Sequence record: NC_054929.1
Direction: 5' to 3' (one strand)
Length of the DNA stretch: 64,000 nucleotides
Source: Escherichia phage PE37
Below are positions 359 through 4,456 of this stretch, piece by piece (position 1 is the first letter of the stretch; every line of letters starts with the position of its first letter). The notes under the pieces were generated by a model, which had not been told where the DNA came from, did no database searches, and saw only the letters and a program-made list of their open reading frames with translations. Position numbers and translations under genes: made by a program.

Positions 359-535
359 ATGACTACTTTAATTATTTGGTTTGACGAAAATGAAGAAACA
401 TATTGTGTGAACATTGGCGAAAGCCCAATGCCAGAATTTGAATCTTCAGATAAAAACTCGGTTATATCTTGGGCTGAAGGTTATAAAGCAGCAAAAGGCG
501 ATGTTGAAATAGTTTACAAACTATCCGGAGTATAA
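359..535 (+). CDS. small hypothetical protein (58 aa)
   Basis: ATG with GGAG upstream; fills gap between flanking genes; not in ORF track (<60 aa). Confidence 0.4.
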   Translation: MTTLIIWFDENEETYCVNIGESPMPEFESSDKNSVISWAEGYKAAKGDVEIVYKLSGV

Positions 536-578
536 TACTCTCATGGATTTTAAATCTTAATTAACCTAAGGAAATACT

Positions 579-1172
579 ATGAACACACTGAAGAAAATTG
601 TTGAGTTTATTCGCACTAAACTTGGTTCTGCTATGGCTAAAAATCTATCTGTTGAAGAGCAGTATACTGCCGCAGCAGCAAAATTGCTTGATAAAATTAA
701 AGATCTAAAAACTGCTTCTGTTAAATCTATTAATGAAGAAAAGCGTATTCGTGAACTTATTGTCGAAAAGAATAAGCAGGCCGAATCAAAAGAGCGTGAA
801 ATTCGCAAGCTCCTTTCGGAAGGTCAAGATGTAACAATGCATGCTAAACTTGGTTTACTATATCGTCGAACAGCTGAGCAGTTGACTACTAAAGCTGATG
901 GTTATGCTGAAATGCGAATTGAAATCGCCAAGAAAGTAGTTGAGTTAGATGATGCTCGCCAAGAACTTGCAGTTAAATTGGAATATATCCGTGAAACTCG
1001 TGCAGCGAATGCCCTTGGAATTAGTACTGCCGATGATGTAGTTGAAATTGCAGCGCTGACTAAGGTTGATATTGAAGATACTCTTGCTCGAGTTGAAACC
1101 TTTAACGGTAATATTTCTGGGGTTGAAACCACCTCTGCCGATGTTCAGGAATATATTAATTCTCTGAAATAA
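579..1172 (+). CDS. coiled-coil protein, PspA/IM30-like (e.6 position)
   Basis: ATG+SD; 197 aa helical, charge pattern resembling PspA/Vipp1 family. Confidence 0.6.
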
Positions 1173-1175
1173 TGA

Positions 1176-1199
1176 TAAGGGGCTTCGGCCCCTATTACT
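1176..1199 (+). terminator. UUCG-tetraloop hairpin (GGGGCTTCGGCCCC)
   Basis: perfect GC stem with UUCG loop; weak U tract. Confidence 0.5.
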
Positions 1200-1213: not shown

Positions 1214-1822
1214 ATGAAAATGCAAAGTGATTTCAATTCAATGTTTGAAGAGTTCCAAAGACAGGTTGATGTTCCAGACCAATTATTAAATGCTCTTAAA
1301 CGTATGGCAGAAGGACGTAATTATTATTGGGGTTCTTCATATGAAACTGTTGAAAGTCTTTCTGGAAGATTTTCTAGAGGTAAAAAGTCTTTAATACGTC
1401 CTGGAATACTTATTAACAGTATTGAATCAATTCATTTATTAACATGCGATTTTGACGTTGAATTTACTGATTTTGTTTCTCCTGAATGGACGGTCTGTTA
1501 TTTAAACGACGATTATGATTATCTTGGCGTTTATAGTTTAAGTGATGCATGGTTTAAACGTAATTTACAAAAGTCAAATTTATTCTATATTGATACTACT
1601 GTAAAATTTCAGGGCAAGAAATATTTCTTTACTCTTATAGTTGACTCTGAAACAAAATATGAAAATAAACGTATTCTTAGTAAAAAGAATATCTTAACTA
1701 CTGTCGATGATCTTTTTGATAAATTCGTAGAAAATCCCAATTTTGAAAGCGATTTATTATTAGAAAAATTTGTTAAGGAATGTAGAGAATATGTCAAAAC
1801 CATCACTATACCTTCCAAGTAA
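1214..1822 (+). CDS. hypothetical protein (e.5 position)
   Basis: ATG+SD GGAG; 202 aa. Confidence 0.65.
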   Translation: MKMQSDFNSMFEEFQRQVDVPDQLLNALKRMAEGRNYYWGSSYETVESLSGRFSRGKKSLIRPGILINSIESIHLLTCDFDVEFTDFVSPEWTVCYLNDDYDYLGVYSLSDAWFKRNLQKSNLFYIDTTVKFQGKKYFFTLIVDSETKYENKRILSKKNILTTVDDLFDKFVENPNFESDLLLEKFVKECREYVKTITIPSK

Positions 1823-2183
1823 ACCGTTGAAGTATGAATTAAAGCGTCAGATAATTTCTACTGATGTGTTAATAGGTCCTGTGGTAGCTGTATCATTTGT
1901 GATTCTGCTGATTGCTGGAATGGTTATAGACGTTATGACTGATATTGGATCTAATACAATATTTGCGTCAACGCTAATTCTTCCATTGGTAGTTCCGCTT
2001 TTATTAGTACCTATAAATTGGATAGGATATTGGTATCAAGGAAGACACTATCGTAAACGTGTACGTGATTGGAAAGCCCAGTGCAAAAAGATTAAAAAAG
2101 AACATCAGCTTAAACTTGCTGCGTATGAATTTGATGAAATTATGAAATTTGTTAAGGAATCACGATGCAAAAGCCAAAACTAA
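1791..2183 (+). CDS. membrane protein, e.x paralog family
   Basis: in-frame ATG at 1791; hydrophobic segments; C-terminal motif shared with neighbours. Confidence 0.55.
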   Translation: MSKPSLYLPSKPLKYELKRQIISTDVLIGPVVAVSFVILLIAGMVIDVMTDIGSNTIFASTLILPLVVPLLLVPINWIGYWYQGRHYRKRVRDWKAQCKKIKKEHQLKLAAYEFDEIMKFVKESRCKSQN

Positions 2184-2527
2184 ATAAAGCCAAATATTCG
2201 TTTCCAGAGGCACTATTAATTCTTGCCGTATCAGCATTTACAGCTCTTGCGGGTAGTCTTATTGGATTATTAATTGACTGTTTTATTTTAAACATCGACG
2301 GCACAGTAATTATAACAGAGGTTTGGAGTGAACTTCGTTATACTATAGCGATTTCATTATTTTCATTCTTTGGTACCATGTTATATTTTCATTATGATAA
2401 TTTTAAAATAAATTGGCAAAGAAAAAAAGATTACAAAATACAATTAAAAGAATATAATAGCTACATGTCTTATATTGAAAAAGAATCAATGGAAGAGTTT
2501 GTGAGTGATTGTAGGAAAATTAAATGA
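2165..2527 (+). CDS. membrane protein, e.x paralog family
   Basis: ATG; 2-3 TM segments; C-terminal ...DCRKIK. Confidence 0.6.
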   Translation: MQKPKLNKAKYSFPEALLILAVSAFTALAGSLIGLLIDCFILNIDGTVIITEVWSELRYTIAISLFSFFGTMLYFHYDNFKINWQRKKDYKIQLKEYNSYMSYIEKESMEEFVSDCRKIK

Positions 2528-3012
2528 TTTTAAAAACTCGCTGGTATGATTTAGATGACGGGGATGATGGCATTTCAGTTAATAGAGTTGACTGGAATGG
2601 CTGTTCCGAAGATATGAAAAATTTGCTGATTAGGGAGTTTAGAATGGGATATCAACCAGTTAAGCCATCTACTGCAACAGATGATAAATTCGTGTGTATT
2701 CATAATGGTCGCGCTAAATTAACGAACGCTGATTGGTTCACAGATAAAATTATGATTCTGTGGTATATTATTAGTCTTCCTGTGACATCATTCGTATTTT
2801 ACTTTTTTATAAAAAATCCAATGGACAGAATAGGAGATTGGATTCTTTTAACCATACTTGTTAATATTTTTACTGCAGCAATATTATCTGGGATATGGTA
2901 CACGTTCATTGAAATGCCATGGCGTTTACGCAGACAACAAAAGATTTTTGATGAAAAGAAATATACCCAAAATTTAAATAGCTTTATCACTGAATGCAGG
3001 AAATTAAAATGA
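2524..3012 (+). CDS. membrane protein, e.x paralog family (e.2 position)
   Basis: ATGA overlap with upstream gene; TM segments; C-terminal ...ECRKLK. Confidence 0.6.
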   Translation: MILKTRWYDLDDGDDGISVNRVDWNGCSEDMKNLLIREFRMGYQPVKPSTATDDKFVCIHNGRAKLTNADWFTDKIMILWYIISLPVTSFVFYFFIKNPMDRIGDWILLTILVNIFTAAILSGIWYTFIEMPWRLRRQQKIFDEKKYTQNLNSFITECRKLK

Positions 3013-3449: not shown

Positions 3450-4020
<571 letters not shown>

Positions 4021-4039
4021 AGTTACTTGGAGGGATAAA

Positions 4040-4456
4040 ATGACTCGTATTAATTTGACTTTAGTATCTGAACTTGCTGATCAACATTTAATCGCAGAAT
4101 ACCGTGAATTGCCACGTGTTTTTGGTATAGTTCGTAAACATGTGGCAAATGGTAAACGGGTTAAAGATTTTAAAATATCTTCCGAGTTTATTTTAGGTTC
4201 TGGTCATGTTACGTTCTTTTACGATAAGTTAGAATTTTTGCGAAAGCGTCAATCAGACATTATAACGGAATGCTTAAAACGCGGGTTTAGTATAAAAGAT
4301 ACTGAAGTTCCTGACATCGGCGATATTCCAGCAGAATGGAAAAATGATTATAATCCATGCAAATCAGCTATTAAATTGAGTCAACAACGACTCAATGAAA
4401 AAATTTTAATGAAGCCACACTGGTACAAGTATTACGGCAAAAATATTTACATTTAA
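4040..4456 (+). CDS. denV: endonuclease V, pyrimidine-dimer DNA glycosylase
   Basis: 138 aa, [17 protein letters not shown]..., matches T4 endo V. Confidence 0.95.

What the first reader, a model, noticed from the sequence alone, without database searches (positions are those of the whole stretch)
579..1172. PspA/IM30-like coiled-coil protein encoded in the e.x cluster
This 197-aa all-helical protein has the alternating basic/acidic heptad pattern typical of PspA/Vipp1/ESCRT-III-like membrane-remodelling proteins. It could stabilise the inner membrane during infection or modulate the host phage-shock response before lysis. The call is from pattern recognition only.
Basis: inference. Interest (0 to 1): 0.4.

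Follow-up and report, generated by a model that had tools for sequence, protein, structure and literature searches.

The report
Phage T4 e.6: PspA-like protein
The ORF is phage T4 gene e.6, an expressed early protein that is a distant relative of the bacterial membrane-repair protein PspA/Vipp1, so the phage probably carries its own "phage shock protein"; this link was already suggested in print for the same protein family, and its function is untested.

Summary
The ORF at 579..1172 (+) is real. Its 197-aa product is 100% identical to phage T4 e.6, which has early RNA and is detected by mass spectrometry in published data.

- T4 e.6 alone has no Pfam hit.
- Divergent members of its small family (45 clusters among 1.84 billion proteins) pass Pfam's curated cut-off for PspA_IM30.
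- The family profile finds Vipp1/PspA chains in the PDB at E = 8e-5.
- hhalign against PspA/Vipp1 gives 90.6% probability over 168 collinear columns. The score is 45, against at most 22 in 120 shuffles.
- The AlphaFold model has helices at 2-22, 25-80 and 86-145, matching the published α0 (aa 1-22) and hairpin (aa 24-142).

A 2022 paper already proposed PspA homology for this family (phrog_1203) from a Kuttervirus member. This is therefore a new member of a known kind.

Most likely role (inferred): a membrane-binding, polymer-forming protector of the inner membrane and proton-motive force, supplied by the phage because T4 silences host stress responses. Knock-down causes no fitness defect in the laboratory. 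No partner gene is conserved.

The parts
579..1172 (+). e.6 coding sequence (197 aa plus stop), a divergent PspA/IM30/Vipp1-family protein
   Evidence: ORF; 100% identical to T4 e.6/msp3; phrog_1203; PspA link
582..644 (+). aa 2-22: N-terminal amphipathic, basic helix, the α0 equivalent and putative membrane-binding element
   Evidence: Helix 2-22 in both AF2 models. Hydrophobic moment 0.45, against 0.42 for E. coli PspA and 0.57 for Vipp1; net charge +4. Aligns residue for residue with PspA/Vipp1 α0. Published Vipp1 α0 is aa 1-22 (PMC8281802).
651..818 (+). aa 25-80: helix α1, first arm of the hairpin
   Evidence: AF2 helix 25-80, pLDDT about 80-98. Ungapped alignment to PspA 25-80. Equivalents of R44 and E53 are conserved.
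819..833 (+). aa 81-85: hairpin turn (SEGQD), length-variable across the family
   Evidence: Non-helical in both models. Indel position in alignments A1 and A2.
834..1013 (+). aa 86-145: helix α2/α3, second arm of the hairpin. It starts with the conserved [11 protein letters not shown] motif (compare PspA/Vipp1 LAR(A/E)AL) and ends at the nearly invariant G147 (putative elbow).
   Evidence: AF2 helix 86-145, pLDDT 87-95. Conservation. L91, L123 and D124 align with PspA L91, L125 and E126.
1032..1100 (+). aa 152-174: two short helices, the α4-equivalent region, with the conserved (A/M)R(V/I)ETF motif aligned to PspA ARFESF
   Evidence: AF2 helices 152-160 and 166-174 with lower confidence (pLDDT 51-61). 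hhalign extends to e.6 176 / PspA 172.
1134..1166 (+). aa 186-196: short, conserved C-terminal helix ([10 protein letters not shown]; Y192, S195, L196 and K197 nearly invariant among close relatives). It may be a shortened α5 or a partner-binding motif.
   Evidence: AF2 helix 186-196, pLDDT 80-88. Conservation. It lies outside the hhalign match to PspA.
568..572 (+). Shine-Dalgarno AAGGA, 6 nt upstream of the ATG
   Evidence: Read directly from the sequence. Identical in T4.
512..536 (+). Promoter-like region: GTTTACA (512-518), conserved with the -35 annotated upstream of T4 msp3, plus TATAAT (531-536) only 12 nt downstream. The geometry differs from T4, so function is uncertain.
   Evidence: L13089.1 annotates -35 and -10 signals upstream of msp3. 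Alignment A4. The sigma-70 scan did not call it.
1178..1193 (+). GC-rich UUCG-loop hairpin (AGGGGC-UUCG-GCCCCU) 6 nt after the stop codon. It has no U-tract on this strand, so it is more likely an RNA-stability or processing element, or a weak terminator.
   Evidence: Annotated as 'stem_loop, putative' in T4 record L13089.1.

Best explanation
The ORF is T4-type gene e.6. It encodes a highly diverged, shortened member of the PspA/IM30/Vipp1 family, the bacterial branch of the ESCRT-III superfamily.

Shown here:
- It is a real, expressed, early gene.
- It has family-level sequence homology to PspA/Vipp1 from residue 1 to about 176.
- Its predicted architecture matches the family: a basic amphipathic α0 (2-22), an α1/α2-3 hairpin (25-80 and 86-145), an elbow near the nearly invariant G147, then short C-terminal helices.

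Inferred from what PspA/Vipp1 do:
- The protein binds the cytoplasmic face of the inner membrane through α0.
- It self-assembles through side-by-side hairpin packing into carpets, rings or rods that seal leaky membrane and preserve the proton-motive force.

Why a phage would carry it (inference). T4 shuts off host transcription, so the PspF-dependent host psp operon can barely respond. Yet T4 needs an energised, intact membrane until the programmed holin trigger. A phage-made effector from early in infection would buffer membrane damage from genome injection, superinfection, accumulation of phage membrane proteins, or host defences that kill by depolarising the membrane. That would prevent premature lysis or abortive infection. 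The gene is accessory: dispensable in laboratory hosts, and stand-alone with no conserved partner.
For: Identity and expression:
- 100% identical to T4 e.6.
- RNA in the early class and protein in the middle class, detected by mass spectrometry (PMC9697503 supplements).

Homology:
- 5 of 42 family members hit PF04012. P0068 scores 39.0 bits (E = 8.9e-10) and P0066 scores 35.1 bits, both above the 33.9-bit cut-off, aligned 6-146 to profile 2-143.
- These members were recruited by a profile of T4-close sequences at E about 1e-20 over the full length.
- T4 e.6 aligns pairwise to an 85%-identical relative of P0068 (encoded on L006) at E = 8e-14.
- Profile A2 against PDB sequences: Synechocystis and Nostoc Vipp1/PspA at E = 8.2e-5 to 1.6e-3, aligned 1-146 to 1-147.
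- hhalign A2 against PspA/Vipp1: 90.6% probability, E = 1.3e-6, 168 columns.
- Controls: real score 44.9; reversed about 18; 120 shuffles at most 22.
- At 48 positions identical in PspA and Vipp1, the in-register same-class fraction is 0.38, against 0.16-0.27 for shifted registers. Equivalents of F4, V11, K21, L40, R44, E53, L91, L125, E126 and E131 are retained.

Structure:
- AF2 pLDDT 82 and pTM 0.67, with helices 2-22, 25-80 and 86-145. Published values are α0 aa 1-22 and hairpin aa 24-142 (PMC8281802).
- Foldseek PDB top 8 hits are all Vipp1, followed by archaeal CdvB2.
- BFVD returns an annotated phage 'PspA/IM30 family protein' and a giant-virus Snf7 just after the family's own members.
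- α0 is amphipathic and carries net charge +4.

Rationale and independent support:
- T4 induces host psp only weakly (PMC12795941).
- HHpred-based PspA assignment of phrog_1203 (PMC9409062).
Against: - T4 e.6 alone has no Pfam, NCBIfam or PDB-sequence hit.
- The close-relatives profile A1 gives only 7.9% hhalign probability, so the link depends on divergent intermediates.
- The PspA/Vipp1 profile used (A3) is shallow: ten enterobacterial PspA sequences plus one Vipp1 fragment.
- E. coli PspA itself is a poor match (4whe, E = 2.5).
- The C-terminal third is shorter than in PspA, modelled with low confidence, and only partly alignable. The α5-hairpin contact that defines polymerisation is therefore unverified.
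- No membrane binding, polymerisation or PMF data exist.
- CRISPRi-ART knock-down of e.6 gave no fitness defect (PMC11879866 supplement).
- The HIDEN-SEQ main text never mentions e.6. It names only rIIA/rIIB as RexAB hits and acb1 as the CBASS hit.
Confidence: 0.6

Rival explanations
1. Host-Psp mimic or antagonist. e.6 does not repair membranes. Instead it copies the PspA surface to interfere with the host system, for example by binding PspF or PspBC, or by co-polymerising with and poisoning host PspA, and so manipulates the envelope-stress response.
For: It shares family and layout with PspA. It is expressed early. T4 infection shows only weak psp induction.
Against: Among those tested, E. 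coli PspA is the weakest family match (E = 2.5, against 8e-5 for cyanobacterial Vipp1), which argues against recent capture or mimicry of the host protein. The family also occurs in phages of Aeromonas, Klebsiella, Erwinia and other hosts. From general knowledge, T4 shuts down host transcription anyway, so repressing psp would add little.
Confidence: 0.1
2. Dedicated counter-defence decoy. e.6 acts as a PspA-like acceptor or sink for type II CBASS Cap2-mediated cyclase conjugation, or another PspA-linked immune step, and so delays immune signalling.
For: Host PspA is the conjugation partner of a Bacillus CBASS cyclase and slows its activation (PMC11153139). e.6 is lysine-rich, with 21 K. It is an accessory gene that sits in different genomic positions in different phages.
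Against: That paper did not observe PspA conjugation in E. coli systems. T4 already has Acb1, and the HIDEN-SEQ CBASS challenge names only acb1 in its main text. Nothing in the sequence points specifically to Cap2 recognition.
Confidence: 0.04
3. Generic coiled-coil protein with no evolutionary or functional relation to PspA, such as a scaffold or adaptor. On this view the matches reflect helical-hairpin geometry and charged, heptad-like composition.
Against: Composition- and periodicity-preserving shuffles and reversals score at most 22, against 44.9 for the real alignment. The match is collinear from residue 1, with helix boundaries coinciding. Two members pass Pfam's curated cut-off. PF04012 is the only family reaching E < 1e-5 in the per-family summary and the ten members tabulated. 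Register-shift controls support the alignment.
Confidence: 0.1
4. 'Host specificity protein', meaning a virion or tail component, as some GenBank and UniRef records label it.
For: That label appears on several records. One BFVD relative is labelled 'tail completion protein'.
Against: No tail or host-range domain is found in Pfam or PHROGs. The RNA is early and the gene sits among prereplicative genes, unlike late virion genes. The labels look like propagated automatic annotation.
Confidence: 0.02

Closest known systems
Vipp1/IM30 of cyanobacteria (Synechocystis sll0617, Nostoc Vipp1; PDB 7o3w, 6zvr, 8qfv)
   Same: These are the best sequence-profile and Foldseek matches. α0 plus the hairpin align collinearly over about 146 residues. 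α0 is basic and amphipathic. Equivalents of R44, E53, L91, L125 and E126 are conserved.
   Different: e.6 has 197 aa against about 260-270. It has no α6 extension. Its α4/α5 region is much shorter and only partly alignable. It is phage-encoded and expressed early in a lytic cycle. Identity is only about 14-18%.
E. coli PspA (Pfam PF04012; PDB 4whe)
   Same: Same family by hhalign (e.6 1-176 to PspA 1-172), including the N-terminal helix register and the C-terminal ARFESF / ARVETF motif.
   Different: The direct match is weak (E = 2.5). No pspF, pspB or pspC-like partners lie nearby. e.6 is 25 residues shorter at the C-terminus. It is expressed from the phage's prereplicative (early) programme, not from a sigma-54/PspF promoter.
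phrog_1203 member Gp_125 of Salmonella phage SeF3a (Kuttervirus), proposed 'phage-encoded PspA' and anti-Abi factor (PMC9409062)
   Same: Same PHROG family as T4 e.6. The PspA homology claim and the membrane/PMF-protection rationale are the same.
   Different: That paper does not name T4 e.6. It concerns an Ackermannviridae phage in which the gene is sporadic (4 of 15 genomes). Its evidence is a single HHpred comparison, with no controls, no structural analysis and no expression data.
Other annotated viral PspA/ESCRT-III-like proteins (Acinetobacter phage ME3 'PspA/IM30 family protein'; 'pspA-like' gene of Jug jumbo phages; giant-virus Snf7)
   Same: These are virus-encoded members of the same superfamily. 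They are the next-best viral fold matches after the e.6 family (PMC12880540).
   Different: They are recognisable by standard annotation, whereas e.6 is not. They belong to different sequence families and, in Jug phages, sit in a different context (next to terD).

Membership tests
PspA/IM30/Vipp1 (Pfam PF04012) | The protein itself matches the PF04012 profile significantly | tested here: not met
   T4-type e.6 has no PF04012 hit even at E <= 1. It has no NCBIfam PspA hit and no PDB-sequence hit by phmmer.
PspA/IM30/Vipp1 (Pfam PF04012) | Family-level (transitive or profile-profile) homology to PF04012 and to solved PspA/Vipp1 | tested here: met
   P0068 scores 39.0 bits and P0066 scores 35.1 bits, above the 33.9-bit cut-off. 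Both belong to the e.6 family at E about 1e-20. Profile against PDB Vipp1: E = 8.2e-5. hhalign: 90.6% probability, E = 1.3e-6. Shuffle and reversal controls score at most 22, against 44.9.
PspA/IM30/Vipp1 (Pfam PF04012) | N-terminal amphipathic membrane-binding helix α0 (aa about 1-22) | tested here: met
   AF2 helix 2-22. Hydrophobic moment 0.45 (5% of shuffles reach it), against 0.42 for PspA and 0.57 for Vipp1; net charge +4. Alignment to α0 is ungapped. Actual membrane binding was not tested.
PspA/IM30/Vipp1 (Pfam PF04012) | Long α1/α2-3 helical hairpin (aa about 24-142) | tested here: met
   AF2 helices 25-80 and 86-145, with pLDDT mostly above 90. Published hairpin is aa 24-142 (PMC8281802).
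PspA/IM30/Vipp1 (Pfam PF04012) | Elbow followed by α4 and α5, with α5 packing on a neighbour's hairpin (polymer interface) | tested here: inconclusive
   Short helices at 152-160, 166-174 and 186-196, with pLDDT 51-88. The alignment to PspA ends at e.6 176. The C-terminal helix is conserved but its equivalence to α5 is unproven.
PspA/IM30/Vipp1 (Pfam PF04012) | Structure search retrieves family members specifically | tested here: inconclusive
PspA/IM30/Vipp1 (Pfam PF04012) | Homo-oligomerisation into rings, rods or carpets, and maintenance of membrane integrity and PMF | not testable with these tools
   Needs biochemistry, EM and physiology. No published data were found for e.6.
Enterobacterial Psp system (PspF-PspA-PspBC) | Genomic or functional association with PspF, PspB or PspC-type partners | tested here: not met
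   Neighbours are e.8, e.7, e.5, e.4, e.3, e.2 and nudE. No homologous neighbour is conserved across T4, RB43, Aeromonas phage 65, Klebsiella phage pzk-kv8 and metagenomic loci. e.5 is limited to Tequatrovirus.
Eukaryotic/archaeal ESCRT-III (Snf7, Pfam PF03357) | Match to the Snf7 profile; Vps4-binding MIM | tested here: not met
'Host specificity protein' / tail component (database label) | Tail or host-range domain; late expression | tested here: not met
   No such Pfam or PHROG domain. The RNA class is early.

The most novel reading that the evidence does not exclude
e.6 is a viral ESCRT-III-type polymer that replaces the silenced host phage-shock response. It would act as a broad counter-defence by resealing or stabilising the inner membrane against abortive-infection effectors that kill by depolarisation (Rex-like channels, transmembrane effectors of CBASS, retron or Thoeris-type systems). 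It could also set the robustness of T4 lysis timing and lysis inhibition. A more exotic variant has it acting as a decoy acceptor for Cap2-conjugated CBASS cyclases.
Probability: 0.25. Interest if true: 0.7.

Novelty: new member of a known kind. Interest (0 to 1): 0.45.

Why it matters
PspA is named after the stress that phages impose on bacteria. Finding a PspA-type protein encoded by the best-studied lytic phage, made early in infection, suggests that phages actively manage host membrane integrity rather than only destroying it at lysis. It gives a testable function to one of T4's many "hypothetical" early genes. It links phage biology to the ESCRT-III membrane-remodelling superfamily. It also offers a compact 197-aa, genetically tractable family member, with knock-outs, omics data and defence-system panels already available for T4. 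If it counters membrane-depolarising abortive-infection systems, it would represent a generic anti-defence strategy that repairs the damage rather than inhibiting the sensor. The homology itself is not new (PMC9409062), so the value lies in placing T4 e.6 in the family with controls and in making the experiments obvious.

Tried and rejected
- Direct searches with T4 e.6 alone (Pfam, NCBIfam, PADLOC, PDB sequences) found nothing significant.
- hhalign against a single E. coli PspA sequence, or using only T4-close relatives, gave no support (probability 0.6% and 7.9%).
- The exhaustive profile search of 1.84 billion representatives reached only the e.6 family itself (45 clusters) and no bacterial PspA.
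- The word-indexed search with E. coli PspA returned only relatives of at least 86% identity, too narrow for a good PspA profile. I supplemented it with a Vipp1 fragment read.
- The AFDB50 fold library was unavailable.
- The search for related loci with alignment A2 failed because it had no conserved stretch.
- Conserved-partner hypothesis: e.5 is not co-distributed. No neighbour is homologous across divergent phages. Small transmembrane proteins are often nearby (e.4, e.3, e.2; L006 d185 and d60), but they are unrelated to each other and common in these regions, so I rejected a PspBC-like partnership.
- Literature: no paper on e.6 function was found. The Miller 2003 T4 genome review is not held. 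The main texts of the HIDEN-SEQ and CRISPRi-ART papers do not mention e.6.
- The sigma-70 scan did not call a promoter upstream of e.6 in this window. The T4-annotated -35 is conserved, but the -10 region has diverged.

Full report
**What is there.**
- The window is a Tequatrovirus (T4-like) genome. Its first 3.5 kb are 95-97.5% identical to many T4-like coliphages.
- Gene order matches RB3/T4: e.8, e.7, e.6, e.5, e.4, e.3, e.2, nudE, e.
- The flagged ORF (579..1172, + strand, 197 aa) has an AAGGA ribosome-binding site 6 nt upstream. Its product is 100% identical to T4 'msp3' = e.6.
- It matches PHROG 1203, 'unknown function', at E = 8e-88.
- tblastn finds it in 1,098 of 50,697 phage records, almost always full length, from 100% down to about 32% identity. 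Hosts include Escherichia, Klebsiella, Aeromonas, Enterobacter, Yersinia and Cronobacter.
- The identical T4 protein (P39224) is classed as early RNA and middle protein in time-resolved omics data, so it is transcribed and detected by mass spectrometry (PMC9697503 supplements).
This is a real, expressed, conserved, all-helical protein: 166 of 197 residues are helical in the better AF2 model, and 34% of residues are charged.

**Direct tests of the PspA idea fail for the single sequence.**
- e.6 alone gives no Pfam hit at E <= 1, only noise-level coiled-coil matches.
- It gives nothing in NCBIfam or PADLOC and nothing against PDB sequences.
- A profile of 31 close relatives (A1) put three Vipp1 chains among six sub-threshold PDB hits (E = 1-2.4), aligned collinearly from residue 4 to 142. 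That was a hint only.
- An exhaustive HMM search of 1.84 billion cluster representatives found only 45 clusters, full-length members about 195-209 aa plus shorter fragments. The family is small and did not reach bacterial PspA directly.

**The link appears once divergent family members are included.**
- I built a 42-sequence alignment (A2) with members down to 18% identity.
- Scanning each member against Pfam made PF04012 (PspA_IM30) the most frequently hit family. In the per-family summary and among the ten members tabulated, no other family reached E < 1e-5.
- P0068 (39.0 bits, E = 8.9e-10) and P0066 (35.1 bits) exceed Pfam's curated 33.9-bit cut-off. P0069 scores E = 1e-4. All align from about residue 6 to 146 against profile positions 2-143.
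- These are bona fide e.6 relatives. The T4-close profile recruited them at E about 1e-20 over their full length.
- T4 e.6 aligns pairwise to an 85%-identical relative of P0068 (encoded on L006) at E = 8e-14. P0068 is encoded on T4-like contigs next to uvsX and a gp41-type helicase.
- The A2 profile hits Synechocystis and Nostoc Vipp1/PspA PDB chains at E = 8.2e-5 to 1.6e-3, aligned 1-146 to 1-147.
- hhalign of A2 against a PspA/Vipp1 alignment (A3) gives 90.6% probability, E = 1.3e-6 and 168 columns, covering e.6 1-176 and PspA 1-172.

**Controls for coiled-coil artefacts.**
- The real hhalign score is 44.9. Reversed alignments score about 18. Sixty column shuffles give 12.6 ± 2.1 (max 18). 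Sixty heptad-block shuffles give 14.6 ± 2.1 (max 22).
- At the 48 positions where E. coli PspA and Vipp1 are identical, the e.6 family keeps the same residue class 38% of the time in register. Shifted registers give 16-27%.
- Retained positions include F4, V11, K21, L40, R44 (as R/K), E53, L91, L125 and E126 (as L123 and D124), and E131.
- N-termini of divergent members (MGILSRIKEFL, MSIFQRLKSIF, MSLKSLIKRIFRIAEANVN) visibly resemble PspA (MGIFSRFADIVNANIN) and Vipp1 (MGLFDRLGRVVRANLN).

**Structure.**
- Two AF2 models agree (pLDDT 74.7 with A1, and pLDDT 82.0 with pTM 0.67 using A2). The helices are 2-22, 25-80 and 86-145, then short helices at about 152-160, 166-174 and 186-196.
- Published boundaries for the family are α0 = aa 1-22 and hairpin = aa 24-142 (PMC8281802).
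- The N-terminal helix is amphipathic (moment 0.45, against 0.42 for PspA and 0.57 for Vipp1) and basic (net +4).
- Foldseek against the PDB puts Vipp1 in all top 8 places (E = 2e-3 to 1.6e-2, probability 1.0), with archaeal ESCRT-III CdvB2 soon after.
- In BFVD the family's own members come first, including Ackermannviridae phages phiEa2809 and UPM 2146. They are followed by a protein annotated 'PspA/IM30 family protein' from Acinetobacter phage ME3 and a giant-virus Snf7.
- The C-terminal third is shorter than in PspA, less confident and only partly alignable. The α5-hairpin contact that defines polymerisation in this superfamily therefore remains unverified.

**Context and function.**
- No partner is conserved. 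e.5 is confined to Tequatrovirus.
- The gene sits in different places in different phages: the tRNA-e region (T4), nrdD-nrdG (RB43), next to gene 31 (Aeromonas phage 65) and upstream of DNA ligase (L006). No neighbours are homologous between them.
- Small membrane proteins are often nearby, but they are unrelated to one another, so I do not read them as PspBC analogues.
- CRISPRi-ART knock-down of T4 e.6 shows no fitness defect (PMC11879866 supplement). This fits a conditional, accessory role.
- T4 induces host psp only weakly, unlike PhiX174 (PMC12795941).
- My best explanation is that e.6 is a phage-supplied PspA-type effector. It would bind the inner membrane through α0 and polymerise through the hairpin to preserve membrane integrity and PMF while the host cannot respond. 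That would protect against premature holin triggering or membrane-depolarising abortive infection. Only the homology, architecture and expression are shown. The mechanism is inferred from what is known of the family.

**Rivals.**
- A host-Psp mimic or antagonist is possible but disfavoured, because E. coli PspA is the weakest match and the family has a broad host range.
- A CBASS-cyclase decoy is inspired by PMC11153139. There is no specific support, and the HIDEN-SEQ CBASS challenge names only acb1 in its main text.
- An unrelated coiled coil is contradicted by the controls.
- The database label 'host specificity protein' has no domain support and conflicts with the early RNA class.

**Novelty.**
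- The homology is not new at family level. PMC9409062 (2022) reported from an HHpred/pdb70 comparison that phrog_1203 (Gp_125 of Kuttervirus SeF3a) is homologous to PspA. It proposed re-annotating the PHROG as 'phage_shock_protein_A' and suggested an anti-Abi role.
- That paper does not name T4 e.6. Current records and functional-genomics tables still list e.6 as unknown.
- Other viral pspA-like genes are also annotated.
- I therefore class this as a new member of a known kind. The interest is moderate and comes mainly from T4's tractability.

Noticed in passing
window 1766-1781 and 2145-2160; also about 2495-2530 and 2975-3012: An exact 16-nt repeat, AAATTTGTTAAGGAAT, sits at the e.5/e.4 and e.4/e.3 gene junctions. 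A related sequence (TTTGTGAGTGATTGTAGGAAAATTAAATGA and TTTATCACTGAATGCAGGAAATTAAAATGA) sits at the e.3/e.2 and e.2/nudE junctions. As a result e.5, e.4, e.3 and e.2 all end with a similar peptide (KFVKECRE, KFVKESRC, EFVSDCRK, SFITECRK), and each repeat carries the ribosome-binding site and start of the next, overlapping gene. This could be a translational-coupling cassette or a trace of tandem duplication or recombination.
   Followed up: partly
window 1770-3012 (e.4, e.3, e.2): Three consecutive small predicted membrane proteins, each with 1-2 hydrophobic segments, lie just downstream of e.6/e.5. They show no detectable pairwise BLAST similarity apart from the shared C-terminal motif.
   Followed up: partly
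window 359-535, compared with T4 L13089.1 584-919 (L005): The e.7 slot holds a different gene from T4. The window has a 58-aa ORF (phrog_5461), whereas T4 e.7 is 111 aa (phrog_7266 in the CRISPRi-ART table). The region upstream of e.6 has diverged, with indels, up to about 20 nt before the start codon, while the e.6 protein is 100% identical. This suggests a recombination boundary or cassette swap.
   Followed up: partly
window 1178-1193: A perfect GC-rich UUCG-tetraloop hairpin lies directly after the e.6 stop codon, with no U-tract on the coding strand. T4 annotates it as a putative stem-loop. The wider 61-nt fold is not exceptional (z = -1.4).
   Followed up: partly
window 3486-4456: The lysozyme gene e (3486-3980) is followed directly by an ORF (4040-4456) that I recognise from memory as denV (endonuclease V). 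In T4 the ipIII and ipII genes lie between them, and in RB3 an Ip4 gene follows e. This internal-protein region is therefore rearranged relative to both. I did not verify it with tools.
   Followed up: no
L007 (RB43, NC_007023.1) 3501-3947: The annotated RB43 'e.6' CDS is only 97 aa, but the tblastn match covers residues 52-197 of e.6. The RB43 gene is either N-terminally truncated or frameshifted, or its start is mis-annotated.
   Followed up: no
database labels for e.6 homologues: Several GenBank and UniRef entries call this protein 'host specificity protein', and one calls it 'tail completion protein'. No domain evidence supports these labels and they conflict with early expression. They are probably propagated mis-annotation.
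   Followed up: partly
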